Counted from the stretch's first letter, positions 5,061 to 42,258 are shown. The stretch is DNA of 64,000 nucleotides from Candidatus Nealsonbacteria bacterium (GCA_026396115.1 JAPLXL010000005.1:137316-201315); one strand, 5' to 3'. The notes: a model not told the origin generated them from the sequence alone. Numbers and translations: made by a program.

Positions 5061-5131
5061 CGCGGCGTGGAGGAGTAGTACCTTGCGAGGCCCATAACCT
5101 CGAGACCCCTGTGCAATTCAGGGCGCCGCAA
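5061..5131 (+). tRNA. tRNA-fMet (initiator, anticodon CAT), CCA not encoded
   Basis: Cloverleaf by hand-fold: acceptor CGCGGCG/CGCCGCA with a C1:A72 mismatch, A11:U24, and close overall similarity to the E. coli initiator tRNA pattern. Anticodon loop CCCATAA has C at position 33, which is unusual. Confidence 0.55.
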
Positions 5132-5139
5132 CAAATTTC

Positions 5140-5215
5140 GCCGGCGTAGCTCAGCGGTAGTAGCAGGGTCTTCATAAGGCCAAGGTCACAGGTTCGAGTC
5201 CTGTCGCCGGCACCA
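5140..5215 (+). tRNA. tRNA-Met (elongator, anticodon CAT; tRNA-Ile2 not excluded), CCA encoded
   Basis: Hand-folded cloverleaf: acceptor GCCGGCG/CGCCGGC, anticodon loop TTCATAA, T-arm ACAGG-TTCGAGT-CCTGT, 3' ACCA. Confidence 0.7.
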
Positions 5216-5216
5216 T

Positions 5217-5295
5217 GCGGGTGTAGCTTAGTCCGGTTAAAAGCGCTGCCCTGTCACGGCAGAGATCGTGGGTTCAAATCCCATCGCCCGCGCCA
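5217..5295 (+). tRNA. tRNA-Asp (anticodon GTC), CCA encoded
   Basis: Acceptor GCGGGTG/CGCCCGC, anticodon stem-loop CTGCC-CTGTCAC-GGCAG, T-arm GTGGG-TTCAAAT-CCCAT, 3' GCCA. Confidence 0.8.
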
Positions 5296-20185: not shown

Positions 20186-20224
20186 GGAGGGAAGACTGAA
20201 TTCAGTTTCCCCTCCTTATTTTTT
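20186..20224. terminator. bidirectional intrinsic terminator between the convergent ORF 19775-20173 and miaB-miaA
   Basis: Long hairpin ggagggaagACTGAATTCAGTttcccctcc flanked by an A-run (5') and a T-run (3'). Confidence 0.5.
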
Positions 20225-22256
20225 CCAAAAACGCTTTTGTTAGTTTTTCAGCCTTCTTGTAATTTTTAAACCAATGAATGCGGTCATCTTTCTTAAACCA
20301 GGTTAATTGCCTTTTGGCGAAATGTTCAATTTCTTTTTGAAGGAGATTAATCATTTCGTCGTATTCCAATTTTTTTTGAAGATATTGCGCGATGAAACGA
20401 TATTCCAAGCCAAATTCTTCAAGTCGTTTCCAGAAAATTCCTGCTTTGCGGAGTTTTTTTACTTCCTCAATCATTCCTTCCCCTTTTAATCTTCTTAAAA
20501 GTCGTTTATTTATTAGTTTTTTCAATTCTTCTTTTTCTTTTTTAATTCCTAACATTAAAACAGGATAGGGAAGAGGATTTTTTTTGGAAACAGGCACCGG
20601 TTTTTTTGTTTTAATCACAATTTCCAAAGCCCTGATTAATCTTCTTCTGTTGTTCTTATCAATTGTTTTTGCCCTTTTTGGGTCAAGTTTTTTCAATCTA
20701 TTAAAAAGCTCATCCGTGCTTAGTTGTTCGAGATTCGATCTCAATCGCCAATCTGGTTTTACTTCGGGGATGACTATTCCGTCTAATACGGCTTGAATAT
20801 AAAATCCAGTTCCCCCGCACAAAATCGGAATTTTTCCTTTCTTAAAAATTTTATTTATTGTTTTAATTGCCAGCTTTTTGTATTGAACAACAGTAAATCT
20901 TCTTTTTGGACTGGCTACATCTAAAAGATAATGTGAGATATTCTGCATTTCTTTTTTGGTTATTTTGCCGGTACCGATATCCATTCCTTTATAAACTTGC
21001 CTTGAATCAGCTGAAATTACTTCTCCATTGAATTTTTTGGCTAATCTTACTGCTAATTCCGATTTTCCTGAGGCAGTGGGCCCTAGAATAACAATCAATT
21101 TTTTCAATGGACTAACTCCGGGTTTTATATCGTTGGGTTTTTCAGCATATTGTTGAATTATTTCTCTTAATATTTTTTCTCTTTTCTTTTTTTCTATTAA
21201 AGGGACACTGTCTTTCATTTTGAAAGCGGCGGTTCCCGAACGAGGGGAGTATTTGGAAATATAAGCCCAGTCAAATTTATTTTTTTTGAATAATTTTACC
21301 GTATTCCGGAACTGTTTTTTGGTTTCTCCGGGGAATCCGACAATTGCATCTGTTGAAAGTTTAACTGGCGTGATTTTGGCCCGTATTTTTTTGACCAGAT
21401 TTTTATATTCTTTTACAGAATAATTTCTGTTCATTTTTCTTAAAATTTTGTCATCCCCGGACTGGACAGGCAAATTTATATATTTTCCGAATTTTTTACA
21501 ATTAACTAAAGTATCAATCAGTTCATCGGAAAAATTACTGGGGTGAGGAGAGGTGAAAAGAATTTTAAAATCACCGGGAATATCATCAGTCATTTTTAAA
21601 AGTTTAGCAAAATTAATTTTGGGATTGGTAGGCGAAGAGGATATATCCTCTTCTTCACCCTTCGCTGCGGCTCGAGTAGGTGATTGATAATCATTAACAT
21701 TTTGGCCCAAAAGCCAAATCTCTTTGAAGCCATTTTTTACTGCGTTTTCTACTTCCTTTAAAATTTCTTTATGGTCGCGGCAAACTAGAGGTCCTCGCAC
21801 AAATGGAACAACACAATAAGAGCAGAAATTATTGCAGCCATTAGAAATAGGAACAAAAGCCATCGATTTTTCTCGGTATTTAGTCAAAGAGCTAAAATCC
21901 TTTTCTTTACCCTTCGTTGCGGCTCGGGTTGGTGAATACTTTAATAAATCTTTAAACTTTAAAATTTGATCAAATCCCTTAGCAAATTTTTGTCTATCTT
22001 TTTTTAAAATACAACCCGTGAGAATAGTTTTAAGTTTTGGTTTTTTGTTTTTAAGCGTTTTAAATTTGTGTAATAATCCATAAACCCTATCCACTGCCGA
22101 TTGTCTGACAGAACACATATTAACCAGAATCAAATCCGCCCCATCTTTTTTTGGGGCCTCTTTATAGCCCTTTCTTTCTAAAGCAACAGCAATCCGCTCA
22201 GAATCAGCTTTATTCATCTGGCAGCCGTATGTAATTATAAAATATTTACCCTGCAT
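20202..22256 (-). CDS. fusion protein: MiaB-like radical-SAM methylthiotransferase (N-terminal ~385 aa, TRAM domain absent) fused to tRNA dimethylallyltransferase MiaA (C-terminal ~300 aa); two mini-element insertions in the MiaB part
   Basis: N-terminus MQGKYFIITYGCQMNKADSE (UPF0004) and radical SAM CNNFCSYCVVP; C-terminus LIVILGPTASGKSELAVRLAKKFNGEVISADSRQVYKGMDIGTGK (MiaA P-loop). Inserts encode SPTRAATKGKEKDFSS and SPTRAAAKGEEEDISSSPT. Confidence 0.75.
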   Translation of the reverse strand: MQGKYFIITYGCQMNKADSERIAVALERKGYKEAPKKDGADLILVNMCSVRQSAVDRVYGLLHKFKTLKNKKPKLKTILTGCILKKDRQKFAKGFDQILKFKDLLKYSPTRAATKGKEKDFSSLTKYREKSMAFVPISNGCNNFCSYCVVPFVRGPLVCRDHKEILKEVENAVKNGFKEIWLLGQNVNDYQSPTRAAAKGEEEDISSSPTNPKINFAKLLKMTDDIPGDFKILFTSPHPSNFSDELIDTLVNCKKFGKYINLPVQSGDDKILRKMNRNYSVKEYKNLVKKIRAKITPVKLSTDAIVGFPGETKKQFRNTVKLFKKNKFDWAYISKYSPRSGTAAFKMKDSVPLIEKKKREKILREIIQQYAEKPNDIKPGVSPLKKLIVILGPTASGKSELAVRLAKKFNGEVISADSRQVYKGMDIGTGKITKKEMQNISHYLLDVASPKRRFTVVQYKKLAIKTINKIFKKGKIPILCGGTGFYIQAVLDGIVIPEVKPDWRLRSNLEQLSTDELFNRLKKLDPKRAKTIDKNNRRRLIRALEIVIKTKKPVPVSKKNPLPYPVLMLGIKKEKEELKKLINKRLLRRLKGEGMIEEVKKLRKAGIFWKRLEEFGLEYRFIAQYLQKKLEYDEMINLLQKEIEHFAKRQLTWFKKDDRIHWFKNYKKAEKLTKAFLEKIRRGN
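21631..21682. repeat. mini-element copy, in-frame in miaB-miaA
   Basis: ggcgaagaggatatatcctcttcttcacccttcgctgcggctcgagtaggtg. Confidence 0.75.
21903..21934. repeat. partial mini-element copy, in-frame in miaB-miaA
   Basis: ttctttacccttcgttgcggctcgggttggtg. Confidence 0.6.
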
Positions 22257-32222: not shown

Positions 32223-34805
32223 ATGCAAAAGAAACTCACAAAATTTATTGTTATCTTTTGTTTATTTTTGCTTTTTCTGTTTCTCTCTTTAACTACCCAA
32301 GTCGCAGTGCAGGGTGAAGAAGAGAATTTATTCTCTTCGCCCGCTTTGGCTCAAGAAAGTAAATTAGAGGTTGAATATCCGGAAATCAAAGGAATAAAAC
32401 CGGAAACGGTGACAACCGAACTGCCGGAATATGTAAGATATGTCTTTAATTTTAGCATAATAATTGCGGGTTTAGTTCTTTTTGGAGCTTTAATTTACGG
32501 AGGAGTAAAATATTTAACCTCAACCGGCAACCTGCCTGCTCTGATAGACGCCAGAGAGCAAATTTTGGCAGCTTTTTTGGGAATAATAATTTTACTTTCT
32601 TCTTATATAATTTTAACCACTATTAATCCCCAGTTAATAGTTTTTAATCTTCCCGAACTTGAAAAAGCAGAAATATTATGTAGAAATGATGATGACTGCC
32701 TCGGAGATCTTATATGTATAGAAGAAAAATGTGTTGAAGCACCCTGCGAGAAAGACGAAGATTGTCCGGGTTTTCCGGACTATGTTTGCAAATTACCAGA
32801 GGGAGTCTGCGTTTATGAAGGAAAGACTTTGATTGTTTATGAAATTCCTTTAGGCCGAATAATTGACGAAGGAGTCTGGGAGGAAGATAGGACTAAAGAA
32901 ACGGAAGATTTAATTAAAGATTTTGAAAAATTTCTTAAAGAGGAAATAAAAGTAAATCCAACTTTTAATCAGATTGCTGATTTGAATAAATATTTAAAGA
33001 CCTTGACAGAGGAATGCCAATGCGGTAATTTGGATGCTTTTTGTACCAAACCCTGGGAATGGAGTATGTCGATTGGTTGCAGCGGAGATCCTTGTAAAGA
33101 AAAACTAGAGGGGACAATCGGAGGCATTGTAGTCGGTGAAAAAACCACCAGAGAAAAAATGGAAGATGTTTTGAAAATCAATGAAGAAAAGATGAAAAAA
33201 CTTTTGGAGTTTTTAGAGAAAATCAAAGAAAAGAAAACGGTCTTCGAAAATCAACTGAATAAATTCTCCAAAGGGTTGGAAGATGCAATGGATTGTCTAA
33301 AACAAAGTAGGGAGTTATACACTTTCAAGGAGCATTTAGCTAGGGTTCAATATTATGAAGATCTTGGCTGGAACGTAAAGATCGTACAGGGTATTTTAGA
33401 AGCAAAAGCGGACCCCTTTACTTTTTACTGTTCGGTTGGAGGACCAATAATGGATTATCCCTATTTGTCGGAAATAGAATTTTCTCCGGAAGAATTCGAA
33501 TCTGTCGAAATTCCGGAGAAACTAGAAAAGCCGGAACCAATAAGCTGTCCGATTGGGATTCCAATAAGTGTAATTTTAGAACAAAGTGGCGGATTAGGAG
33601 TGGCACTGATTAACAAAATGGATGGATTAATTTATTGGATAGACGAGATGAATAAAGAAATCAGAAATATGGCTGATTTCGTTTCTCAATGCAACGAGCA
33701 AAATTGCAAAATTAATTGCGCCTGTATCCCGAATCCTTGCTTTGGTAGTCTATTACCCTGGTGTTTGTTTTTTTCTCCTGCATCTCGCTGTCTTCAGGCA
33801 ATTGGTCAATGCAGCGGTGATCCCTGTCCTTACCCGGAAATTGGAGAAACCTCAGAAAAAATTAAAAAAAATGAAGATGAGATTTTTTTACTTTTAGAAG
33901 AAATAAAAGAAATCTTCCCCAAAGTCAATGAAATTGTGAAAGTAGGCACGGAAGATGCTCTAGACCTGAAAGACATAACCTGGGCAGTTGAATTCTGTTC
34001 CGGTCCTGTGACTGAAACAGAACCACCGACCTGGTTTATGTCAGATTGTTCAATGGCTCTGGGAAGTTATGGGCCGGGCGGTCAAGTAATCGGCGATTGT
34101 CATCCCTGGGATTTCTTTTGTTGTACTCAGTCAAAAGAAGCTTTGAGGGAGGTACCTTCTTTGCCTCCGACGCTTCGAAAACTGGGACCTCGTGTTGGCC
34201 CGGAAGGTCCGGAAGAACCCACGCCTTCAGAATTAGCTAAAAGTTCAATTCCGGCAATGTCTTCGCCGCCTCTCAAGACAGGCGAAGTTAGCTGTCTAAA
34301 ACAGAGCGATCCTCGTTGGGGAAACAAATTATTTGGTCCTTGCCCGCCAGGCGGTACTTATACTGACGCAGGTTGCGGACCTTCTTCTTTAGCAATGGCA
34401 ATTAGTTATTTTCAAAACAAAGAAATTCTTGTTGATACAATCGGGGAAAAAATTGTTGAAAAAGGTTTAAGAAATTGCGACAGCGGCTCAAGCCCTAGCA
34501 TAATGACAGTTATTCCGTCACTATATGGATTATCTTCATATGAAATTAAACCGTTTGCCTTTGAAAACTGGAAAGAAGAAGTAAAGAAATGCTTTGATGA
34601 AGGAGGGTTAATTACTGCTCTAATGGCTGGCCCCAGTAAGTTTACTGCAGGCAGCGGACATTTTATAGCGCTAACTGACATAACCGATGATTATGCTTAT
34701 ATTACGGTAAATGATTCATCCAAAAGAATCTGCCCCAGACAGGAGTTATTAAAAGATGTTTTTAAGTTCAAAAAACAACCGGGTATTTGGTGTATAAAAA
34801 AATGA
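32223..34805 (+). CDS. large secreted/membrane-anchored Cys-rich protein: signal peptide, VirB2/TrbC-like two-helix pilin-like domain, Cys-rich modules, C-terminal C39-like cysteine peptidase domain
   Basis: N-terminal signal peptide; TTELPEYVRYVFNFSIIIAGLVLFGALIYGGVKYLTSTGNLPALIDAREQILAAFLGIIILLSSYIILTTINPQL has two TM helices; the C-terminus carries ...DAGCGPSSLAMAISYF... and ...GSGHFIALTDITDD... (C39-type Cys/His motifs). A mini-element copy is inserted near the N-terminus. Confidence 0.5.
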   Translation: MQKKLTKFIVIFCLFLLFLFLSLTTQVAVQGEEENLFSSPALAQESKLEVEYPEIKGIKPETVTTELPEYVRYVFNFSIIIAGLVLFGALIYGGVKYLTSTGNLPALIDAREQILAAFLGIIILLSSYIILTTINPQLIVFNLPELEKAEILCRNDDDCLGDLICIEEKCVEAPCEKDEDCPGFPDYVCKLPEGVCVYEGKTLIVYEIPLGRIIDEGVWEEDRTKETEDLIKDFEKFLKEEIKVNPTFNQIADLNKYLKTLTEECQCGNLDAFCTKPWEWSMSIGCSGDPCKEKLEGTIGGIVVGEKTTREKMEDVLKINEEKMKKLLEFLEKIKEKKTVFENQLNKFSKGLEDAMDCLKQSRELYTFKEHLARVQYYEDLGWNVKIVQGILEAKADPFTFYCSVGGPIMDYPYLSEIEFSPEEFESVEIPEKLEKPEPISCPIGIPISVILEQSGGLGVALINKMDGLIYWIDEMNKEIRNMADFVSQCNEQNCKINCACIPNPCFGSLLPWCLFFSPASRCLQAIGQCSGDPCPYPEIGETSEKIKKNEDEIFLLLEEIKEIFPKVNEIVKVGTEDALDLKDITWAVEFCSGPVTETEPPTWFMSDCSMALGSYGPGGQVIGDCHPWDFFCCTQSKEALREVPSLPPTLRKLGPRVGPEGPEEPTPSELAKSSIPAMSSPPLKTGEVSCLKQSDPRWGNKLFGPCPPGGTYTDAGCGPSSLAMAISYFQNKEILVDTIGEKIVEKGLRNCDSGSSPSIMTVIPSLYGLSSYEIKPFAFENWKEEVKKCFDEGGLITALMAGPSKFTAGSGHFIALTDITDDYAYITVNDSSKRICPRQELLKDVFKFKKQPGIWCIKK
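32302..32350. repeat. mini-element copy at the N-terminus of the 860-aa surface protein
   Basis: gggtgaagaagagaatttattctcttcgcccgctttggc. Confidence 0.6.
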
Positions 34806-37687
34806 AAAAATATTTTTTGAAAAAAAAGATTATAATTCTCTTTTCAATAATAATAACGGTAGTTTTAATCGCCGGCCTTTTCATTGTTTTTGATTTTAAT
34901 TTAGAAAATTTAACAGTTAAAAAAGGCATCCAAATGACTAAAAATAAAGCCCGAATTTTTGCCCAAGAAATCTCTCTTTCTTTTATGCCTCGTTTTCCTC
35001 AAAGATTGATGTATTTAGCCGGAGAAATGACAATCCTTACCCAGAACCTGGTTAATTTTAACGAAAAATTGAATGAACTTACAGAAGAATGTGGTTGTCA
35101 ATATGCCGAATCGCAATGTCAACAGAGTAAAATCTTGGGAGTCCAAGTAGGATGCAAACCCGGAAAGATTAAAACTTTTAGCGACCCTTGCCCCCATAGA
35201 GAAGAGATTGAAGACAGGCAATTAGATATCCAGATGAAAATAGAACAATTTTCTTATTTACAAAAATTACTCAAAAAAGAAATGGAGGTAGGATTGGAAA
35301 AAGAATTAAAAACTTTAAGGCCGGAAGTGGCTGAAGAATTAAAAGATAATTTAAATAAACTTCTTGAGTTAAATCAAGACGCTATTCTTTCGGCCTCATC
35401 TACCTACCCTTTACCTCTTCAATGTACGGCTGACAAATGCCAAGCCCAATGTCAACAGGGATCCAGTTTCAGCCTGAAGGCTTGTCTCAATCCCGGTGAG
35501 CAAAAACCAATGGAAGCGATATTTGAAGCCGGAGTGGGTTTGAATGATTTAGAACTCGGCGAAATAGGAATTAAAAATATCAATTTAGGATTACCGGAAG
35601 AAATTGAATTAAAAGACCTGGCTGAACTTTCTTCATTCACTATTTCTTTGCCAAGCGTTAATATCACTTTTCCTGAAATTACAATTGCTGAGTTTCAAGC
35701 AGGAGCATCTCTCGATCTTTCCGGCCGACCTATTATCTTCAATCCACCTTCACCAACAATTCCTCAGCCACCCTTATTGGAGTTATCCTGTCCAAAATTG
35801 CCGCCCTATGAACCATCCACTTTTTCCCAAACTTCCTTAGCCCAAACAATTGGTGATTTTCCGTTTAGGACGTTAGGCTGTGGCTGTTCTCCTAGTTGGT
35901 CAATTACTGTGGAAGAAGAGTCCGTAGATTATGTTGACGTTGAGTGGTATTTTCAAACTTTTTCCTGGTTATCGGAAAAATGTCAGGAGTTGCCGGGAAT
36001 GGAAGACCAGGGAATTCCAACTGAGAAAATTGAAAAATGTTTTGACCAGGAAAATGTCCATTTGACTATTATTCAAGAATGCGATGATTTTTGGGCAAAT
36101 TATAACCCTGAATCTCCGCCGCCTATTCCGCCAATTTGCAATGCTCTGGGACCGTCTTCTTCGGCAACTCAAATACAACAAGAATGTCAAAATTTATTTG
36201 AACAAGAAGGAGAATCCGCTCCTTCAAATTGCAACCTAAGCGTTTTAAAAGAAAAATGCGAGCAATTAAAAGATGAAGGAATAGAAGAAACTCCTGAGCC
36301 TTGTAAGTTTTTACCCCTCTTTACCGGTCAATTTCCTTCTCCGGACTCTTATGAATTTTCCGGTTCGCCCCAGTTTTCCCCAACCCAAACAATTGCCGAT
36401 TTTCCGCTTAGTATGTTGGGCTGTCCTGCATCTCCTCCCACTCTTCCCAAAATTATTTTTCCTAAAATAGTCATTCCTGATATTAAACTACCACATATTA
36501 AGTTTTGGCCCTTTTTTGATATTAAACTGCCTAATTTTATTTTTGAAGATTTGATTCTGCCTGATTTAGACCTCTGCGATTTAGATAACTGCGCCAATAT
36601 CTTTCCTGATTTAAAATTTCAATTGCCGTATCTTGATATACCGCAAATTATTGTTCCTTCCATTCAACTGCCGGACATCAGCGCTAATATTTCGGGCGTA
36701 GGAGTGATTAAAGTTCCTTTGCCGAGAGTTGAACTTAGCGAAATTGAATATCCGGTTATTTCTTTAAATTTTCTTCAATCATTTAATTTAGGCAATCTTA
36801 TTACTCCGGAATTAGAACTGCCAAGAATTGAATTGCCCCGGCCAAAAGTTCATTTTGCCTTCAAAAGTCTTAATATTGATTTCTTCAATATTCTTTTAGG
36901 ATTGATTGGTCAATTTCTTCCTATTCCATCGGGATGTATCGGCTTTGATTTCCATATAATTCCTCTCTCGATTATTTTTCCTGATTTTTATTTTACCTGG
37001 CCTGCTTTTCCGAGAATTCCAGAAATCCCTTTTTGCGAGAACATAAATGACTTTTGTCAAAAGGCGAAAACCAATTTGAAAGAAGTAACCGATAAAGTCA
37101 AAGAAATAGAAAACCTAGCCAATACAACTTTCCAAAATGAAATTCAGTCAAAACTTAATCTGGCGGCTCAAGAAATAAATCAAACATTAGCCAATGCTAT
37201 TGGAGAACAACTAAATCAGCGCAGCCAAACAATAATAGACGAGATAGAAAAACATATTCAGCTTAACGCAAAAATAGAAGCCGGGGTTTTGAAAATCCCA
37301 CCGCTTTCGATTGAAATGCCAGATATAGAAGTTCCGACTATTTCCTTGTCTGAGATAACCGGTTTGCCGGATAAAATCACTATTCCCTGGCCAGAGAGCT
37401 TGAAAAAAATTATTCTTGAAAAAGAAATAACCTATAAACTCCCGACTATATCTTTAGATAAGCTCAGTTATGAGAAAGAGATTTCAATTAAAATCCCCGG
37501 TTTTCAGATGCCTTCGCTAACAGTTACTTTAGGCTCGCTTCTTAATTATCCTTCTTGTGAAAGCCAGCCGCCTTCTGGCAGCAATCCTTGTCCTACCGGT
37601 CAAATTCAGCAGAAGCTTGAGGAGATTAAACAAGTTAAAGGTGAAATAGAAGAAACTTCCAAAAAGATAATTAATATATTAGAATGA
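34802..37687 (+). CDS. giant N-terminally anchored Cys-rich protein sharing a TEEC-x-C...GC-x-G...DPC module with the preceding protein; degenerate LP-rich repeats in the distal half
   Basis: One N-terminal TM helix; NEKLNELTEECGCQYAESQCQ...GCKPG...DPCP parallels LTEECQCGNLDAFC...GCSGDPC of the upstream gene; the start overlaps the upstream stop (ATGA). Confidence 0.45.
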   Translation: MKKYFLKKKIIILFSIIITVVLIAGLFIVFDFNLENLTVKKGIQMTKNKARIFAQEISLSFMPRFPQRLMYLAGEMTILTQNLVNFNEKLNELTEECGCQYAESQCQQSKILGVQVGCKPGKIKTFSDPCPHREEIEDRQLDIQMKIEQFSYLQKLLKKEMEVGLEKELKTLRPEVAEELKDNLNKLLELNQDAILSASSTYPLPLQCTADKCQAQCQQGSSFSLKACLNPGEQKPMEAIFEAGVGLNDLELGEIGIKNINLGLPEEIELKDLAELSSFTISLPSVNITFPEITIAEFQAGASLDLSGRPIIFNPPSPTIPQPPLLELSCPKLPPYEPSTFSQTSLAQTIGDFPFRTLGCGCSPSWSITVEEESVDYVDVEWYFQTFSWLSEKCQELPGMEDQGIPTEKIEKCFDQENVHLTIIQECDDFWANYNPESPPPIPPICNALGPSSSATQIQQECQNLFEQEGESAPSNCNLSVLKEKCEQLKDEGIEETPEPCKFLPLFTGQFPSPDSYEFSGSPQFSPTQTIADFPLSMLGCPASPPTLPKIIFPKIVIPDIKLPHIKFWPFFDIKLPNFIFEDLILPDLDLCDLDNCANIFPDLKFQLPYLDIPQIIVPSIQLPDISANISGVGVIKVPLPRVELSEIEYPVISLNFLQSFNLGNLITPELELPRIELPRPKVHFAFKSLNIDFFNILLGLIGQFLPIPSGCIGFDFHIIPLSIIFPDFYFTWPAFPRIPEIPFCENINDFCQKAKTNLKEVTDKVKEIENLANTTFQNEIQSKLNLAAQEINQTLANAIGEQLNQRSQTIIDEIEKHIQLNAKIEAGVLKIPPLSIEMPDIEVPTISLSEITGLPDKITIPWPESLKKIILEKEITYKLPTISLDKLSYEKEISIKIPGFQMPSLTVTLGSLLNYPSCESQPPSGSNPCPTGQIQQKLEEIKQVKGEIEETSKKIINILE

Positions 37688-37702: not shown

Positions 37703-39049
37703 ATGCAGAGAAAGACAACTTTGAATAAATATTTTTTTCTCATCCTAATTTTATTTTTATTTTTTTTGTTAAGTGATTTTGCTTTGGCTAAGAAATGTAC
37801 AACCGATGCTGAGTGCGCGCCGGCAAGATGTGTAGATGAAAAATGTGTTAAGACCTTAGAGATTGTTTATCCTAAGGTTCCCGGAGCTACTGCCACTCCA
37901 GAAACCGTTGCCACCGGCTTGCCAGAATACGTCAATTATATTTTCCGATTTGCGGTTATTGTCATTGGCTTAATAATTTTTGGTGTTTTGGTTTACAACG
38001 GCGTTATTTATTTGACCTCAGTCGGGGATCCATCCAAAATGACTGATGCCAGAACCGGAATTTTTGCCGGTTTTTTAGGGGCAATTATTTTGCTTTCAGC
38101 TTATCTCATCTTTAATACTATTAATCCTCAATTAACTATTTTAAAAATGGAAGAAGTCCCTGCTCTCAAACCCATCGTCTTCCCAGGCATTTATATTTGC
38201 GCCAATAAGGTAGATGATATAGAAGGAGTTCTCAATAAATACCTTCAAGGTGATCGAGTTGAAGCTGTCGAAGAGCTCCGAAAAATAATAGAGGATAAAA
38301 TCTGCCTAAAAGCTAATTTCTCCGGCAATTTCGAGAATTTTGAAGTGAGTGCGAATAACAATACTTTTTTTGTCATTCCAGCTGAAGAGTCAAAATATGA
38401 TTCCGATAAAGCAACAACCACAACTAAATATGTGTCTAAATATGGATTAATTTTACACGAAAAAGATAATTTTAGCGGCAGATGTTTTCTCGCATTCCAA
38501 GAAAATGATAAAATATATGCATCATCATCTAAAGAAGAATTTAAGCCAATTTCCGGAAATTTTGATAAGTTACCCTCAGATTTCAAAGCCAGATCATTTA
38601 CTCTTTTTAAAGAACCTGACCCTGAACCGGCTCCTGCTGCCCAAGGAGTAATCTTATATAATTGTCTTAGTTATGACCAAACGGGGTGCGCAAAAGATGT
38701 TACGCTTAAAGAAGCTCCTTTCAATACAGGAGGCGCTGATATGAGACAGGTTACGAAAAGTGGACTGGGAGAATTAGCCCAAAATACCCGTTCAGTTAAA
38801 ATTGATCCCAAAGGTTCTTTCTTGGCTCTCCTTTATGAGAAGGACGATTTTGAAGGTAAATGTGAAGTAATTTCTAGCAATGTTGTTGACCTTACCCAAC
38901 ATCCTATTGGTCGTTGTCCGACTGACCTTGCGGGAGCTGGCTGCAATGTTATAGGAATTTGGATTTATAGTCTAGGAGGTCTGCTATCCAACCCTTATTG
39001 TCAGCCCTGTATTCAATCAATGACTGTAATTAAGGGACTAAGACTCTAA
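37703..39049 (+). CDS. secreted protein with a second copy of the VirB2/TrbC-like two-helix domain and a Cys-knot-like N-terminus
   Basis: Signal peptide; CTTDAECAPARCVDEKC; TVATGLPEYVNYIFRFAVIVIGLIIFGVLVYNGVIYLTSVGDPSKMTDARTGIFAGFLGAIILLSAYLIFNTINPQL is paralogous to the domain in the 32223 gene. Confidence 0.45.
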   Translation: MQRKTTLNKYFFLILILFLFFLLSDFALAKKCTTDAECAPARCVDEKCVKTLEIVYPKVPGATATPETVATGLPEYVNYIFRFAVIVIGLIIFGVLVYNGVIYLTSVGDPSKMTDARTGIFAGFLGAIILLSAYLIFNTINPQLTILKMEEVPALKPIVFPGIYICANKVDDIEGVLNKYLQGDRVEAVEELRKIIEDKICLKANFSGNFENFEVSANNNTFFVIPAEESKYDSDKATTTTKYVSKYGLILHEKDNFSGRCFLAFQENDKIYASSSKEEFKPISGNFDKLPSDFKARSFTLFKEPDPEPAPAAQGVILYNCLSYDQTGCAKDVTLKEAPFNTGGADMRQVTKSGLGELAQNTRSVKIDPKGSFLALLYEKDDFEGKCEVISSNVVDLTQHPIGRCPTDLAGAGCNVIGIWIYSLGGLLSNPYCQPCIQSMTVIKGLRL

Positions 39050-39054
39050 TTAAG

Positions 39055-40548
39055 ATGAAAAAAAATTATTTTTATCTCCTAATTTTAACTCTTCTTTTTC
39101 TTCTTTTTCCTTTGCCAACTTTTGCCCAATGGACATTCATCCGGGATGCTCTTTTGTTTCTTCCCACCTTGGCAATTGCTGCTATTTTGGCTTTTGTTAT
39201 TTTTCTTAGCGGAGGAATTACTTGGTTAGTGGGTGCAATTCTTAATTGGGTAATCAGCCCCGGGTTTGTCAGTTTAAGTTATACCAGAATTGATGGCCCA
39301 AATCCCAATCCAATAATTGGAATGGGATTAAACATTACCCAAAGTTTTGTTAATTTGGCTCTGGTGGTTATTTTGGTTGTTATTGCTCTTTCCATTGCCC
39401 TGCGATTGGGTGAATACGGCAGTAAAAAAATCTTTGCCAAGCTGCTTATTATTGCCTTATTGGTTAACTTTGCTCCGGTTCTTGTTGGCTTAATAGTTGA
39501 TGCTTCAAATATTGTCATGAACTATTTTTTAAATGCAATTACAGAAGGAGCAATGGATATTGGTTCTCAGGTTTCAGATTTTAGCGCTGGCATTGCGAAA
39601 GTTATTGGGGGGGCTGGCGGCAACATTATGAGCAGATTGGGATTAGTGATGCAGGGGATTACCCAGATTATAGTCAACCTGTCCATGGCTTTTGCTTTTT
39701 TACTTTTTGCCGCTCTTTTCTTGATGAGATATGTAGTCATCTGGACTTTAACTATTTTATCTCCCCTGGCTTTTGTTGCTTGGATTTTACCCGGCACTAA
39801 AAAGCTTTGGAATATGTGGTGGAATCAGCTTATTCAATGGTCAATTATTGGTATTCCCATTGCCTTTTTTCTCTATTTAGGTCTCAATAGTTTTTCCTAT
39901 CTTAGGTCTGCTTTCGTTAGCAATCTTGAAATGCCGGGCATGGAACCGGCAACTGTTGGTTTTTTAAACGAAATTTTCCCTTTTTTCGTTATCATTGTCT
40001 TCCTTATTTTAGGCTTTGCCATCGGTCTTCAAACCGGAGCAATGGGAACTAAGGCAGTGATTAAAGGATTTCAAGCCGCTAATAAAACAGCTCAAAAAAC
40101 AACATTAAAAGCCATCGGACGCGGAACAGCGGCAGTCGGAATGGCAGCCGGAGGAGCGGCAGCCGTAAGTGCTGTTGGAAAGATGCAGAGAACATATACA
40201 GCTGGAAGAGCAAAAGGCCTTTCACCGATAAAAGCGACGGGTGAAGCGGTAAAAAGACAGTGGCAAAGAAGAACGTGGCCGGCAATAAAACAGACGGGGC
40301 AAGTGATAAAAACAACATTAACAACAAAAGCAGGAGCAAAAGCAGGAGCAAAAGCAGGATGGTCTAAGGGGGTGGCTGCCGGAAAAGGAACTTGGTCTGC
40401 TGTTAAGGATATTGCCAAACAAACAGCAATCGCAGGAGCAGTCGCAGGGGGAATAATGAAGAAAAAATCACCAACTCATTGTCCATCTTGTGGAGGCGCT
40501 GCTCCGGCCGGAGCAAGTTTCTGCCCTCATTGCGGAGCTAATTTTTAA
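39055..40548 (+). CDS. polytopic membrane protein (VirB6/TrbL-like topology) with a Lys/Ala-rich tandem-repeat tail and a C-terminal CxxC...CxxC zinc ribbon
   Basis: Signal-like N-terminus plus at least six hydrophobic helices; tail KAGAKAGAKAG is encoded by a 3x9-bp tandem repeat at 40327-40358; ends HCPSCGG...FCPHCGANF. Confidence 0.4.
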   Translation: MKKNYFYLLILTLLFLLFPLPTFAQWTFIRDALLFLPTLAIAAILAFVIFLSGGITWLVGAILNWVISPGFVSLSYTRIDGPNPNPIIGMGLNITQSFVNLALVVILVVIALSIALRLGEYGSKKIFAKLLIIALLVNFAPVLVGLIVDASNIVMNYFLNAITEGAMDIGSQVSDFSAGIAKVIGGAGGNIMSRLGLVMQGITQIIVNLSMAFAFLLFAALFLMRYVVIWTLTILSPLAFVAWILPGTKKLWNMWWNQLIQWSIIGIPIAFFLYLGLNSFSYLRSAFVSNLEMPGMEPATVGFLNEIFPFFVIIVFLILGFAIGLQTGAMGTKAVIKGFQAANKTAQKTTLKAIGRGTAAVGMAAGGAAAVSAVGKMQRTYTAGRAKGLSPIKATGEAVKRQWQRRTWPAIKQTGQVIKTTLTTKAGAKAGAKAGWSKGVAAGKGTWSAVKDIAKQTAIAGAVAGGIMKKKSPTHCPSCGGAAPAGASFCPHCGANF

Positions 40549-40566: not shown

Positions 40567-41043
40567 ATGTCAGAAGAATTTGAAATTCAAAAACTAAAAA
40601 GCGAATACCCGGAATTTTTTGAGCAGGTTTCTCCTGAATTTTTGGAGTTTATTTTTTCTGAAGAAACCTCTTCTAAAATTGCCGAGATTTGTTTGGAAAA
40701 CGGAATAGAAGACGAAGAAAAAATTGAAAAAATTGCTTACCGGGTTACCTTGGCTCTGTTAGAGCAAGTACCAAAAGAAAACTTAACTGAAGTCCTTGAA
40801 AAAGGAGTTGAAATAGATTTTGAAACCGCCGAAAAAATCTCTATTGAGATTAAACAGCTTATCTTTTCACAAATTCCAGAAACTCAACCAAAAGAAATTC
40901 AAAAAGAAGAGGATCAAATAGAAGAAGATGAGATAGAAGAAGATGAACTAACTCAACCGGAAAAACCGTCTCCTCCGGTGACGGAAAAAGAAGAACCTGA
41001 AAAGCCCTCAAAAAAAGATGTTTACCGAGAGCCTGTTGGATAA
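40567..41043 (+). CDS. acidic (Glu/Asp-rich) hypothetical protein
   Basis: ORF only; C-terminal EEDQIEEDEIEEDELTQPEKPSPP. Confidence 0.3.
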   Translation: MSEEFEIQKLKSEYPEFFEQVSPEFLEFIFSEETSSKIAEICLENGIEDEEKIEKIAYRVTLALLEQVPKENLTEVLEKGVEIDFETAEKISIEIKQLIFSQIPETQPKEIQKEEDQIEEDEIEEDELTQPEKPSPPVTEKEEPEKPSKKDVYREPVG

Positions 41044-41088: not shown

Positions 41089-42258
41089 CTACTTCTTTTT
41101 CTTTTTATGCCTCTTTCTCTGTTTTTTTAGTGTTTCTAGGGCTTCTCGAGCACTTTTCATTACTCTTTCTGTCTCTGGGCTTAATGGTTTTTCTGCATTT
41201 ACTTCTTCTTCTTTTGGTTCTTGTTCTGATTCACCACCCGGTATCCTCTTCCAAGCTCCGATTAGATTAAGAAAAGCTCCTTCCATTCCAGTTGCCCCAG
41301 GCGTTTCAATCCTAAGGTAAGATCTTTGTTCCATTGAAAGTTTTGTCATTGTATTGTCTACAATGGGTTGATGTTTTTGGTAGAAAACTTGGGGATCCGC
41401 CCTGAACTCTGCCTGGACCTCTTCCTCTTTTCTTCCTTCGGCTCTCGTCACCGCTAAAATCACAGTTCCCATTATTTCCTCAGCTCTACCAGCTGCCCTC
41501 ATCTCCTGTTCTTTTTTAGCAGCTCCTGCTTTCTGATATTCCGGTGATAATCCAATGCTTTTAATGTCTATTCCTTGTTTCGCAATTTGCAGCCCCCATT
41601 TAGGAAGAGTTTCTTGAATTAATTTTTCGTCTTTTAACCCAACGATTCCTTCCCCTCCTTCCCAGAGAGTTTCACTTTTACCTTTCAAAGCGATAAATTC
41701 ATCTACTGTCAACATGCTAACTCTCGCCCTCATAAGAGCGTCTATTCTGGCAAGGACATCTTCCAGAGGAGTCGGAGGAGCAATAAAGAGAAACAGAAAA
41801 GGATTCAATATCCGCATCGTTATCAATATCTCAATATCCAGCGGAATTCGTTCTGGAGGTAGGGTCTCTACCTTAAAAATTTTTGTCCAGTAAACCGCTG
41901 GTTTCAACATTACATGTCTAAGCTCTTCATCGTGAAACTGTGGTTTCTCAATTTTCTCTCCTACTTCCTCTACCCGGCGTAGATCGGTCCATCTTAAAGG
42001 ATATTTATAGATTTTATAAAAGGGCCATAAATAAACATACAAGCCACCAAAAATTTGACCATAAAGCTTACTTTCTTTTTTTTTCTTCTTCTCTTTTTTC
42101 CTCCAAATATTCCATTCAACATCCATCCAATGATTTTCCCATTGGAAGATAATTTTATAGAAAGCGCCCGCCTTCATCAGCGCCTGGGCTGTCCCTTCTT
42201 TTACAATAGTGAACCTGACAAACAAAAAAAATACTCCTAATAATATTAACCATTCCAT
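41089..42258 (-). CDS. SPFH/band-7-like membrane protein with a poly-Lys segment and basic C-terminus
   Basis: N-terminal TM then IVKEG...; later VETLPPERIPLDIEILITMRILNP and WGLQIAKQGIDIKSIGLSPEYQKAGAAKKEQE resemble SPFH core motifs. The family assignment is tentative. Confidence 0.35.
   Translation of the reverse strand: MEWLILLGVFFLFVRFTIVKEGTAQALMKAGAFYKIIFQWENHWMDVEWNIWRKKEKKKKKESKLYGQIFGGLYVYLWPFYKIYKYPLRWTDLRRVEEVGEKIEKPQFHDEELRHVMLKPAVYWTKIFKVETLPPERIPLDIEILITMRILNPFLFLFIAPPTPLEDVLARIDALMRARVSMLTVDEFIALKGKSETLWEGGEGIVGLKDEKLIQETLPKWGLQIAKQGIDIKSIGLSPEYQKAGAAKKEQEMRAAGRAEEIMGTVILAVTRAEGRKEEEVQAEFRADPQVFYQKHQPIVDNTMTKLSMEQRSYLRIETPGATGMEGAFLNLIGAWKRIPGGESEQEPKEEEVNAEKPLSPETERVMKSAREALETLKKQRKRHKKKKK

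What the first reader, a model, noticed from the sequence alone, without database searches (positions are those of the whole stretch)
34293..34805. C39-like papain-fold cysteine peptidase domain at the C-terminus of the 860-aa surface protein
The last ~170 residues contain SCLKQSDPRWGN..., TDAGCGPSSLAMAISYF and GSGHFIALTDITDDYAYI. These are a Gln, a Cys in a CG-x-S/A-x-LAM context, and His and Asp with the spacing typical of Peptidase_C39-like (bacteriocin-processing / transglutaminase-like) domains. On a secreted protein that also carries a pilin-like anchor, this suggests a surface-displayed protease or a processing peptidase for other components of the cluster.
Basis: partly seen in the sequence, partly recalled or inferred. 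Interest (0 to 1): 0.55.

Follow-up and report, generated by a model that had tools for sequence, protein, structure and literature searches.

The report
Pilin-anchored C39-like wall-cutting peptidase module
The C-terminus of this 860-aa secreted protein from a Patescibacteria (CPR) genome really is a papain-fold C39-like cysteine peptidase, but its context shows it is an exchangeable cell-wall-hydrolase cassette on a type IV secretion pilin-like stalk protein, not a bacteriocin-processing protease.

Summary
Residues 688-832 of the 860-aa ORF (32223..34805, +) match Pfam Peptidase_C39_2 above its curated cut-off. An AlphaFold2 model (pLDDT 84) has a papain-like fold.

The interpretation needs changing. 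There is no PCAT-type ABC transporter, no double-glycine leader ORF and no PF03412 match. The protein consists of a Sec signal, a VirB2-like pilin hairpin, a roughly 500-aa Cys-rich stalk ending in NFFCC, a Pro-rich linker and the enzyme. It opens a conserved five-gene Patescibacteria module that includes a VirB6-like protein. In relatives this module lies next to VirB3/TraC-like/VirB4.

In orthologues the same C-terminal slot holds M23, M74, NlpC/P60, M23+SLT_3, an uncharacterised His/Asp domain, or nothing. Two near-identical loci (VirB4 96% identical) differ by a clean M23-to-C39_2 cassette replacement.

The closest folds are a pseudomurein endoisopeptidase and phage tail lysins or endolysins. 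The best reading, at confidence about 0.6, is a pilin-tethered peptidoglycan peptidase of the T4SS-like apparatus. Whether it cuts the cell's own wall or the host's is unresolved.

The domain itself is ordinary. The pilin-hydrolase cassette architecture was not described in the literature I could search.

The parts
32223..34805 (+). Complete gene for the 860-aa protein: signal peptide, VirB2-like pilin hairpin, Cys-rich stalk, Pro-rich linker, C39_2 peptidase.
   Evidence: ORF list. 55 homologues, all from Patescibacteria where a source names them.
32223..32315 (+). N-terminal hydrophobic signal-peptide-like segment (aa 1-31).
   Evidence: Hydropathy scan. The cleavage site is inferred.
32355..32642 (+). 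VirB2/TrbC-like T4SS pilin domain (aa ~45-140) with two TM helices (aa 70-98 and 112-136).
   Evidence: Pfam T4SS_pilin scores 16.7 bits, below the gathering cut-off. The segment is 50% identical over 114 aa (E=5e-34) to the paralogue at 37703..39049, which passes the cut-off. Homologues pass the cut-off. TM segments.
32643..34124 (+). Cys-rich extracellular scaffold (aa 141-634, 30 Cys) ending in the conserved NFFCC motif (aa 631-634).
   Evidence: Cys counts. Sixteen invariant or nearly invariant Cys across 45 homologues. Several homologues end 4-7 residues after FFCC.
34125..34289 (+). Pro/Ser/Glu-rich linker (aa 635-689).
   Evidence: Sequence. Model pLDDT is below 60 for the first ~20 residues of the modelled segment.
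34290..34802 (+). Peptidase_C39_2 papain-fold domain (aa 690-860). This is the finding itself.
   Evidence: Pfam, alignment, AF2 model, Foldseek against PDB and BFVD, PDB profile search.
34302..34304 (+). Gln694, invariant, a candidate oxyanion-hole residue.
   Evidence: Invariant column. The role is inferred.
34374..34376 (+). Cys718, the predicted catalytic nucleophile.
   Evidence: Invariant. It lies at the N-terminus of helix 48-61 of the model. It aligns with the GC/CG motif of 3ERV and PCAT C39 domains.
34659..34661 (+). His813, the predicted catalytic base.
   Evidence: Invariant. It lies at the start of strand 143-150 of the model. It aligns with the HF.V motif of C39 structures.
34713..34715 (+). 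Asp831, the predicted third triad residue (in VNDSS).
   Evidence: Invariant. It aligns with the (N/A)DP motif of the C39 domains.
34802..37687 (+). Gene 2 of the module: a 961-966-aa membrane-anchored Cys-rich protein. Its ATG overlaps the TGA of gene 1 (ATGA).
   Evidence: ORF. Overlap. Orthologues follow the scaffold gene directly in L001, L002, L004-L007 and L011.
37703..39049 (+). Gene 3: a 448-aa T4SS_pilin-domain protein with a ~300-aa C-terminal domain.
   Evidence: Pfam T4SS_pilin scores 28.1 bits, above the cut-off. Synteny.
39055..40548 (+). Gene 4: a 497-aa polytopic membrane protein, VirB6/TrbL-like, with a C-terminal zinc ribbon.
   Evidence: At least six TM segments. It is 55% identical over 332 aa to the L002 gene that carries a weak TrbL_3 hit. 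Zinc-ribbon hits.
40567..41043 (+). Gene 5: a 158-aa conserved protein that precedes PrgI/VirB3 in related loci.
   Evidence: Homologues in 19 loci. In L002 it sits directly upstream of PrgI, TraC-like and VirB4.

Best explanation
The domain is the enzymatic head of a pilin-tethered cell-wall hydrolase that belongs to the T4SS-like pilus apparatus of Patescibacteria. The protein is exported by Sec. It is held in the membrane, or built into a pilus, by a VirB2-like two-helix hairpin. That topology puts the remaining ~720 residues outside the cell. These comprise a disulfide-rich stalk of about 500 aa, a flexible Pro-rich linker, and a C39_2 papain-fold peptidase (Cys718/His813/Asp831, with Gln694). 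I propose that the peptidase cuts peptide stems or cross-links of peptidoglycan. It would do this either locally in the cell's own wall, to let the apparatus through (a VirB1-like role), or in the wall of the host cell at the contact site, as phage tail lysins do. Shown here: the fold, the conserved catalytic residues, the topology, the gene-cluster membership, and the exchangeability of this module with recognised peptidoglycan hydrolase families. Inferred: the substrate (peptidoglycan), incorporation into a pilus, the disulfide bonding, and which wall is attacked.
For: 1. Fold and active site: Pfam C39_2 above cut-off; invariant Q/C/H/D; confident papain-fold model; catalytic residues align with solved C39-type structures.
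2. Topology: signal peptide plus a pilin hairpin 50% identical to a bona fide T4SS_pilin paralogue.
3. Cluster: the five-gene module 860/966/448/497/158 is syntenic in L001, L002, L004-L007 and L011. Gene 4 is VirB6/TrbL-like. In L002 and many other loci PrgI(VirB3), TraC-like and VirB4 follow. 29 of the 55 genome loci have a VirB4 hit within the fetched flanks.
4. Cassette slot: the scaffold ends at NFFCC. Homologues either stop there or add C39_2 (9 proteins), NlpC/P60 (5), M74 (1, E=1e-7), M23 (2, E down to 1e-24; one also has SLT_3), or an unknown His/Asp domain.
5. Other pilin fusions: pilin-C39_2 and pilin-M23(+SLT_3) fusions also occur without the stalk (L014, L022, L046; L015, L021).
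6. Natural swap: L015 and L022 are syntenic (VirB4 96% identical, TraC-like 94%). The pilin-fusion gene, one gene downstream of virB4, is 69% identical over 350 aa. Its tail is then unrelated: M23 (E=5e-32) in L015 and C39_2 (E=9e-13) in L022. DNA homology resumes in the next gene.
7. Phylogeny: a scaffold NJ tree puts C39_2 bearers in two separate clades, so the module was acquired more than once.
8. Structural neighbours: the best PDB match is pseudomurein endoisopeptidase PeiR (E=8e-7). The best viral matches are segments of a tail tape measure protein and of phi29-type 'morphogenesis protein 1 hydrolase' proteins, cyanophage 'lysozyme' proteins and a Gordonia phage endolysin.
9. Literature: a mycobacteriophage LysA domain (N5) matches the B. 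anthracis C39-like peptidase (PMC3314691). PF13529 is listed among lysin and peptidoglycan-hydrolase domains (PMC10541714). Most Patescibacteria with VirB2 lack a recognisable VirB1 (PMC12102498).
Against: No C39_2 protein with biochemically proven peptidoglycan activity was found in the searchable literature. One C39-like archaeal protein was reported to have glycosidase-like rather than peptidase activity (PMC13642728). The most frequent alternative module in the slot (the SAHYGG...D...HxH type) has no Pfam, PDB-sequence or Foldseek match, so it cannot be counted as a wall hydrolase. PHROGs and NCBIfam give no hit for the domain. The 64-kb window has no VirB4, PrgI or TraC-like gene, so the link to a T4SS in this genome rests on synteny in relatives. 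The Cys-His geometry was not measured. NlpC/P60 assignments for several homologues fall below Pfam's cut-off.
Confidence: 0.6

Rival explanations
1. Protein-processing protease. The C39_2 head trims or matures other components of the cluster, for example by removing the large C-terminal domains of pilin-domain proteins such as the 448-aa paralogue, or it releases itself by cutting the linker.
For: C39-type peptidases are classically protein or peptide processing enzymes. The profile aligns with PCAT/LahT peptidase domains. The cluster encodes pilin-domain proteins with long extensions that might need trimming. The frequent alternative tail of unknown function leaves room for non-wall roles.
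Against: M74 murein endopeptidase, SLT_3 lysozyme-like and M23 modules in the same slot do not fit a pilin-maturation role. The clean M23-to-C39_2 swap in near-identical loci argues for a shared substrate. Many orthologues have no tail at all although the rest of the scaffold is kept.
Confidence: 0.17
2. Bacteriocin or double-glycine-leader processing C39 peptidase.
For: Distant sequence and fold similarity to PCAT1, ComA and LahT peptidase domains. Some related pilin-C39_2 proteins (L005, L046) also touch PF03412.
Against: This protein has no PF03412 hit at E<=1. The domain is C-terminal on an exported stalk, not N-terminal and cytoplasmic on an ABC transporter. No strict GG-leader ORF lies in 26-46 kb; two loose matches fall inside other genes. 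No PCAT is present in the window.
Confidence: 0.02
3. Contact-dependent toxin or effector head. The protein is a polymorphic-toxin-like weapon whose variable C-terminal domain is delivered to kill or lyse the neighbouring cell rather than to build the apparatus. This overlaps with the 'host wall' branch of the best explanation.
For: The pattern of a conserved N-terminal carrier plus rapidly exchanged C-terminal enzymatic cassettes is the hallmark described for polymorphic toxins (PMC3482391, listed; the content is from my own knowledge). The structural neighbours are phage tail lysins.
Against: No small immunity-type gene follows the tail. The next gene is the same conserved ~900-1200-aa protein whatever the tail type, with gaps of 0-60 bp or overlaps. 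The pilin hairpin would keep the protein attached.
Confidence: 0.12
4. Non-catalytic or non-peptidase C39-like domain, for example a binding module or a glycosidase-like activity.
For: A C39-like archaeal protein was reported to lack peptidase activity and to hydrolyse beta-galactoside analogues (PMC13642728).
Against: Cys, His and Asp are invariant across very divergent members (24-31% identity), which argues for a retained thiol-protease mechanism. The reported archaeal protein has Asn in place of Asp, whereas this family keeps Asp.
Confidence: 0.07

Closest known systems
Pfam Peptidase_C39_2 (PF13529), e.g. B. anthracis putative C39-like peptidase, PDB 3ERV
   Same: HMM match above the gathering score. 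Papain fold. Conserved Gln...GC(G)...H...D pattern. The family profile hits 3ERV at E=2e-5.
   Different: Per PMC10318531, C39_2 members are mostly single-domain peptidases. Here the domain is the C-terminal head of an 860-aa pilin-anchored stalk and carries six extra Cys. No physiological substrate is established for the family.
VirB1-like peptidoglycan hydrolases of monoderm conjugative T4SS (PrgK of pCF10, TraG of pIP501, CwlT of ICEBs1)
   Same: Membrane-anchored, extracellular and modular combinations of wall hydrolase domains (SLT, CHAP, NlpC/P60, M23) encoded with VirB3/VirB4/VirB6-type genes (PMC12102498; details of CwlT from my own knowledge). This is the same proposed job.
   Different: The anchor here is a VirB2-like pilin hairpin followed by a ~500-aa Cys-rich stalk. 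The catalytic domain is C39_2, not CHAP or SLT. There is no sequence homology to the VirB1/TrsG/CD419 profiles, which is why such proteins are not counted as VirB1 in PMC12102498.
Phage virion-associated lysins and endolysins with C39-like domains (phi29 gp13-type proteins, tape-measure lytic domains, mycobacteriophage LysA N5 domain)
   Same: These are the best viral structural matches. The LysA N5 domain matches the B. anthracis C39-like peptidase. Both share the logic of an enzyme carried on a filament that breaches a wall from outside, and of modular cassette exchange.
   Different: This is a cellular, chromosomal gene in a T4SS-like cluster. No phage genes are nearby and there is no PHROG hit.
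Peptidase C39 domain of bacteriocin ABC exporters (PCAT1, ComA, LahT)
   Same: Same clan and fold, and the catalytic Cys/His/Asp can be aligned.
   Different: No PF03412 hit, no ABC transporter fusion and no GG-leader substrates. The location is extracellular rather than cytoplasmic. The Gln lies 24 residues, not 6, before the Cys.
Pseudomurein endoisopeptidases PeiR/PeiW/PeiP (archaeal virus lysins)
   Same: Top PDB structural match (8z4h, E=8e-7, TM ~0.55). They are papain-type Cys peptidases that cut a wall peptide cross-link (PMC4592898).
   Different: Only 18% identity and no sequence-level hit. They target pseudomurein of methanogens and have different accessory domains.

Membership tests
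Peptidase_C39_2 (PF13529), clan CA papain-like | Sequence score above Pfam's gathering threshold | tested here: met
   32.8 bits against a cut-off of 24, E=1.2e-7, aa 688-832 covering HMM positions 2-142 of 143.
Peptidase_C39_2 (PF13529), clan CA papain-like | Papain-like alpha+beta fold with the nucleophile Cys at a helix N-terminus and His on a beta-strand | tested here: met
   AF2 pLDDT 84. C718 is the first residue of helix 48-61 and H813 starts strand 143-150. Foldseek gives probability 1.00 to 3ERV, PCAT1, staphopain and PeiR.
Peptidase_C39_2 (PF13529), clan CA papain-like | Conserved catalytic Cys, His and Asp/Asn, plus Gln | tested here: met
   Q694, C718, H813 and D831 are invariant in 18 sequences at 24-31% identity. 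They align to the corresponding motifs of solved C39-type structures.
Peptidase_C39_2 (PF13529), clan CA papain-like | Cys-His juxtaposition in 3-D (dyad distance) | not testable with these tools
   Model coordinates are not exposed to scripts.
Peptidase C39 (PF03412) bacteriocin-processing domain of PCAT exporters | PF03412 match | tested here: not met
   No PF03412 hit at E<=1 for this protein.
Peptidase C39 (PF03412) bacteriocin-processing domain of PCAT exporters | N-terminal fusion to an ABC transporter | tested here: not met
   The domain is C-terminal on a pilin/stalk protein. No ABC exporter lies in the module.
Peptidase C39 (PF03412) bacteriocin-processing domain of PCAT exporters | Linked double-glycine leader peptide genes | tested here: not met
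   A pattern scan of all small ORFs in 26-46 kb found no strict match. Two loose matches lie inside other genes.
VirB2/TrbC-like T4SS pilin (PF18895) for the N-terminal anchor | Pfam match above cut-off | tested here: inconclusive
   16.7 bits, below the 26.6 cut-off. The segment is 50% identical (E=5e-34) to the paralogue at 37703..39049, which scores 28.1 bits. Orthologues P0006 and P0048 pass the cut-off.
VirB2/TrbC-like T4SS pilin (PF18895) for the N-terminal anchor | Signal peptide followed by two hydrophobic helices joined by a short loop | tested here: met
   Hydrophobic segments at aa 1-31, 70-98 and 112-136.
VirB2/TrbC-like T4SS pilin (PF18895) for the N-terminal anchor | Polymerisation into a pilus | not testable with these tools
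   Needs microscopy or biochemistry.
T4SS-associated (VirB1-like) cell-wall hydrolase | Encoded within a T4SS gene cluster | tested here: inconclusive
   In the window the gene is linked to a pilin paralogue and a VirB6-like gene, but there is no VirB4, VirB3 or TraC-like gene in 64 kb. Orthologues and other pilin-C39_2 fusions lie next to VirB3/TraC-like/VirB4 (L002, L005, L014, L022).
T4SS-associated (VirB1-like) cell-wall hydrolase | Carries a recognised peptidoglycan hydrolase domain | tested here: inconclusive
   C39_2 is not a proven peptidoglycan hydrolase family. It is replaced by M23, M74, NlpC/P60 or SLT_3 in orthologues and resembles phage lysins in fold.
T4SS-associated (VirB1-like) cell-wall hydrolase | Homology to VirB1/TrsG/CD419 profiles | not tested
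   CONJScan profiles are not available here. No SLT or CHAP hit in Pfam.
T4SS-associated (VirB1-like) cell-wall hydrolase | Peptidoglycan-degrading activity | not testable with these tools
   Needs zymography or muropeptide analysis.
Polymorphic toxin systems | Variable C-terminal toxin domain on a conserved carrier | tested here: met
   Five or more tail types on one scaffold, and a clean cassette swap.
Polymorphic toxin systems | Cognate immunity gene immediately downstream, co-varying with the toxin | tested here: not met
   The next gene is the conserved ~900-1200-aa protein whatever the tail type, with overlaps or gaps of 60 bp or less.

The most novel reading that the evidence does not exclude
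The exchangeable C-terminal heads (C39_2, M23, M74, NlpC/P60, SLT_3, and the unknown His/Asp domain) on VirB2-like pilin proteins are wall-breaching tips of the essential Patescibacteria T4SS-like pilus. Their rapid cassette turnover would track the cell-wall chemistry of the host that each episymbiont parasitises. That would make them host-range determinants analogous to phage tail lysins. It would also supply the VirB1 function that published surveys report as missing from most Patescibacteria.
Probability: 0.2. Interest if true: 0.8.

Novelty: new variant of a known kind. Interest (0 to 1): 0.5.

Why it matters
Patescibacteria (CPR) make up a large share of bacterial diversity. Most appear to live attached to host cells. 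In the one genetically tractable species, their T4SS-like system and pilin arrays are essential for that lifestyle (PMC10633639, PMC12102498), but what the system does is unknown. A published survey found that most genomes with VirB2-like pilins lack a VirB1 wall hydrolase. [quoted passage not shown] The analysis here shows that in many lineages wall-hydrolase modules, including this C39_2 domain, are fused directly to pilin-domain proteins and are swapped like cassettes. This offers a concrete and testable candidate for how these cells get an apparatus through their own wall or a host wall. It also gives the poorly characterised C39_2 family a probable substrate class.

Tried and rejected
1. 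A single-sequence phmmer search of the domain against PDB sequences gave only a spurious 0.19 hit. A profile was needed.
2. NCBIfam and PHROGs gave no hit for the domain.
3. I tried to identify the commonest alternative tail (the SAHYGG...D...HxH type). I suspected a LAS/M15-like zinc peptidase from the motif. It had no Pfam hit among 13 members at E<=10 and no PDB profile hit at E<=10. Its AF2 model has pLDDT 75.6 with a poor core around the motif, and Foldseek found no match with E<=0.001. A database search shows only that it is also fused directly to small T4SS pilins. The LAS idea is therefore unconfirmed and I did not use it as evidence.
5. I looked for VirB4, PrgI and TraC-like genes in the window by tblastn and found none.
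6. I looked for GG-leader peptides and found none.
7. I checked whether the S. epibionticum T4SS locus holds a C39 protein. There is no 'C39' in the supplementary tables, and the pilins listed there are small.
8. A literature search for YvpB (a Bacillus C39_2 protein) gave nothing informative.
9. A polymorphic-toxin reading was considered, but no immunity gene is present.
Full report
OBSERVATION

The window holds an 860-aa ORF at 32223..34805 (+). The three quoted motifs lie at aa 690-701, 714-730 and 810-827, which is 34290-34703. Pfam Peptidase_C39_2 (PF13529) matches aa 688-832 with E=1.2e-7 and 32.8 bits, against a gathering cut-off of 24. It covers HMM positions 2-142 of 143. The isolated domain gives E=2.3e-8.

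I aligned the domain with nine family members and eight distant membrane-anchored C39_2 proteins at 24-31% identity. Q694, D696, W699, C718, H813 and D831 are invariant in that alignment.

An AlphaFold2 model of aa 671-860 is confident (pLDDT 84, pTM 0.82). Cys718 opens the long helix and His813 opens a beta-strand, which is the papain arrangement. Foldseek against the PDB returns only papain-fold cysteine peptidases at probability 1.00:
- pseudomurein endoisopeptidase PeiR (E=8e-7);
- the B. anthracis 'putative C39-like peptidase' 3ERV;
- the phytochelatin-synthase-like Alr0975;
- PCAT1 and ComA peptidase domains;
- staphopains.

A profile of the family hits 3ERV (E=2e-5) and the LahT/PCAT C39 domains. 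The Cys, His and Asp columns line up with their GC, HF.V and DP motifs.

First, the conserved acidic residue is D831 in VNDSS, not an Asp in TDITDD. Second, the conserved Gln lies 24 residues before the Cys, whereas in the PCAT1 chain a Gln lies 6 residues before it.

THE PROTEIN AS A WHOLE

Hydropathy gives an N-terminal signal-like segment (aa 1-31) and two TM helices (aa 70-98 and 112-136). This hairpin scores below the cut-off on Pfam T4SS_pilin (16.7 bits). It is, however, 50% identical (E=5e-34) to the N-terminus of the 448-aa protein at 37703..39049, which passes the cut-off. Orthologues also pass it.

After the hairpin the protein continues as follows:
- a stretch of about 500 residues with 30 Cys, of which 16 are invariant or nearly invariant in 45 homologues, ending in NFFCC at aa 631-634;
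- a Pro-rich linker at aa 635-689;
- the peptidase.

With a cleaved signal peptide and a two-helix hairpin, everything after residue ~140 is extracellular. That fits the high Cys content.

GENOMIC CONTEXT

Upstream are housekeeping genes: dnaE, thrS, a MiaB-MiaA fusion and, by their sequences, rnhB, rpmF, nusB, rnc and rpsP. Downstream on the same strand are:
- a 966-aa membrane-anchored Cys-rich protein whose ATG overlaps the stop codon of the 860-aa gene (ATGA);
- the 448-aa pilin paralogue;
- a 497-aa polytopic membrane protein;
- a 158-aa protein.
An SPFH/Band_7 gene then follows on the other strand, and after it trmD.

All homologues whose source names the organism come from Patescibacteria/CPR MAGs. 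The five-gene order is conserved in L001, L002, L004-L007 and L011. The 497-aa protein is 55% identical over 332 aa to the L002 gene that carries a weak TrbL_3 (VirB6-like) hit. In L002 the homologue of the 158-aa gene is directly followed by PrgI (VirB3-like), a TraC-like gene and a VirB4-type ATPase. 29 of the 55 species-representative loci have a VirB4 hit within the fetched flanks.

This matches the published description of the Patescibacteria T4SS, which is related to monoderm conjugation systems but has added VirB2-like pilins (PMC12102498). That system is essential for epibiotic growth in Southlakia epibionticum (PMC10633639). The window itself has no VirB4, PrgI or TraC-like gene in 64 kb. 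As in L001, the module here is separated from them.

WHAT THE PEPTIDASE DOES: COMPARATIVE EVIDENCE

The scaffold ends at NFFCC. Nine homologues stop 4-7 residues later. The others add a tail of 190-245 aa. The tails fall into these types:
- C39_2 (nine proteins);
- NlpC/P60 (five proteins; some fall below Pfam's cut-off, while P0034 and P0039 are flagged in the precomputed table);
- Peptidase_M74, the MepA murein endopeptidase family (P0037, E=1e-7, above the cut-off);
- Peptidase_M23 (P0042 at E=1e-24 and P0044 at E=2e-15), with an additional SLT_3 lysozyme-like domain in P0042;
- a frequent module with invariant S-x-H-Y-G-G...D...H that matches nothing known.

Pilin domains are also fused to C39_2 or to M23(+SLT_3) without the long stalk: L014, L022 and L046 for C39_2, and L015 and L021 for M23. 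All were confirmed with Pfam.

The sharpest case is L015 against L022. The two loci are syntenic, with VirB4 96% and the TraC-like protein 94% identical. The pilin-fusion gene lies one gene downstream of virB4. It is 69% identical over its first 350 residues (78% at the DNA level). The tails are then unrelated: M23 (E=5e-32) in L015 and C39_2 (E=9e-13) in L022. DNA homology resumes in the next gene. This is a clean cassette replacement of a bona fide peptidoglycan endopeptidase family by C39_2.

A neighbour-joining tree of scaffolds, which is rough and has no support values, places C39_2 bearers in two separate clades. The window's clade is nested among bearers of the unknown module. In addition, the window's C39_2 domain is no closer to the other Patescibacteria subtype (24-27% identity) than to Firmicutes-type C39_2 proteins (26-30%). 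Both points suggest repeated acquisition.

Independent support comes from structure. The best viral (BFVD) matches of the model are segments of a tail tape measure protein and of phi29-type 'morphogenesis protein 1 hydrolase' proteins, phage 'peptidases', cyanophage 'lysozymes' and a Gordonia phage endolysin. These names are automatic annotations.

In the literature, the mycobacteriophage LysA N5 domain matches the B. anthracis C39-like peptidase by HHpred (PMC3314691). PF13529 is also listed among lysin and peptidoglycan-hydrolase domains (PMC10541714).

Several checks fail:
- there is no PF03412 hit;
- there is no ABC exporter in the module, and the only transporter genes are a HlyD/MacB-type set at 47.7-51.3 kb;
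- there is no strict double-glycine leader among small ORFs between 26 and 46 kb;
- the domain is extracellular and C-terminal, rather than cytoplasmic and N-terminal.

A pilin-maturation role cannot be excluded. It does not, however, explain replacement by the M74, M23 and SLT_3 modules.

BEST EXPLANATION AND ITS LIMITS

The domain is most likely a peptidoglycan peptidase displayed on a pilin-anchored stalk of the T4SS-like apparatus (confidence about 0.6). Functionally this corresponds to the VirB1-like hydrolases of Gram-positive conjugation systems such as PrgK and TraG, which PMC12102498 describes as often not detectable in Patescibacteria.

The evidence does not say whether it opens the producer's wall or the host's. 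Two points favour a target-wall role. First, the fast cassette turnover and the structural resemblance to phage tail lysins. Second, separate LysM-M23 genes lie beside many related clusters. One point favours a self-wall role: the precedent of VirB1, PrgK and CwlT.

The weak points are these:
- I found no C39_2 enzyme with proven wall activity;
- one archaeal C39-like protein was reported to behave as a glycosidase (PMC13642728);
- the commonest alternative tail is of unknown function;
- the T4SS ATPase is not in this window.

NOVELTY

The C39_2 assignment itself is routine. NCBI already names homologue P0012 'C39 family peptidase'. The architecture does not appear in the papers I could search:
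- PMC12102498 reports that most Patescibacteria genomes with VirB2 lack VirB1 and does not mention fusions;
- the S. epibionticum tables contain no C39 entry;
- the only other paper that mentions PF18895 does not discuss fusions.

By architecture I mean a VirB2-like pilin plus a Cys-rich stalk plus an exchangeable wall-hydrolase head, as the first gene of a conserved T4SS-associated module.

I rate the finding a new variant of a known kind: a T4SS-associated wall hydrolase with a new carrier and a new catalytic family. Interest is moderate.

Noticed in passing
P0006, P0003, P0007 etc. (C-terminal ~160 aa); P0104-P0161; L002:8280-8765: An uncharacterised Cys-rich domain with invariant S-x-H-Y-G-G...A-x-D...H (an HxH-like end) is the commonest tail on the scaffold. 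It is also fused directly to small (~270-295 aa) T4SS_pilin proteins across Patescibacteria. It has no Pfam, PDB-sequence or Foldseek match, and its AF2 model has pLDDT 75.6 with a disordered core. The motif resembles LAS/M15 zinc peptidases, but that is unconfirmed.
   Followed up: partly
L015:9806-11434 versus L022:9803-11449: Two near-identical Patescibacteria T4SS loci (VirB4 96% identical) differ by a clean replacement of the C-terminal module of the pilin-fusion gene: M23 in one and C39_2 in the other. DNA homology stops at the junction and resumes in the next gene.
   Followed up: yes
window 20202..22256 (-): A single 684-aa ORF combines a MiaB-like part (UPF0004 plus Radical_SAM) with a complete MiaA (IPPT) domain. 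This would be a fusion of two consecutive tRNA-A37 modification enzymes.
   Followed up: no
window 34802..34805: The ATG of the 966-aa gene overlaps the TGA of the 860-aa gene (ATGA), which suggests translational coupling. The TTG at 34787 listed by the ORF finder is probably not the real start.
   Followed up: partly
window 34787..37687 (+): The 966-aa neighbour shares a short Cys motif (L-N-x-x-L-x-x-L-T-E-E-C-x-C...G-C...D-P-C) with the stalk of the 860-aa protein (E=0.001). It also has a weak PHROG 'tail length tape measure' hit (E=1e-4), which may only reflect coiled-coil composition.
   Followed up: partly
window 39055..40548 (+): The VirB6/TrbL-like polytopic protein is shorter than its orthologues (497 aa against 650-750 aa). 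It ends in a zinc-ribbon motif (aa 473-496).
   Followed up: no
window 37703..39049 (+): The pilin paralogue has a Cys-rich N-terminal peptide before the hairpin (weak 'late nodulin' hit). It also has a ~300-aa C-terminal domain with a faint beta/gamma-crystallin hit, so this 'pilin' too carries a large extracellular load.
   Followed up: no
window 41089..42258 (-); L001:19692-20891: An SPFH/Band_7 gene on the opposite strand directly follows the module in the window and in L001, the two loci where VirB3/VirB4 are not adjacent.
   Followed up: no
L002:4278-5390, L005:7694-8839, L006:7303-8403, L007:7632-8924, L011:7780-9000 (all -): A separate M23 gene (LysM-M23 in L002) sits upstream on the opposite strand of many related clusters, often next to ksgA. 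My small local M23 HMM found no such gene in the window.
   Followed up: partly
P0056-P0096: The nearest non-Patescibacteria relatives of the domain are ~326-aa proteins with an N-terminal TM anchor, a helical region (ALANNPEMADFV motif) and a C39_2 domain. They form a large, apparently uncharacterised family, with up to 400 member sequences per cluster.
   Followed up: no
window 5061..5295 (+): Two tandem tRNA-Met genes are followed by tRNA-Asp.
   Followed up: no
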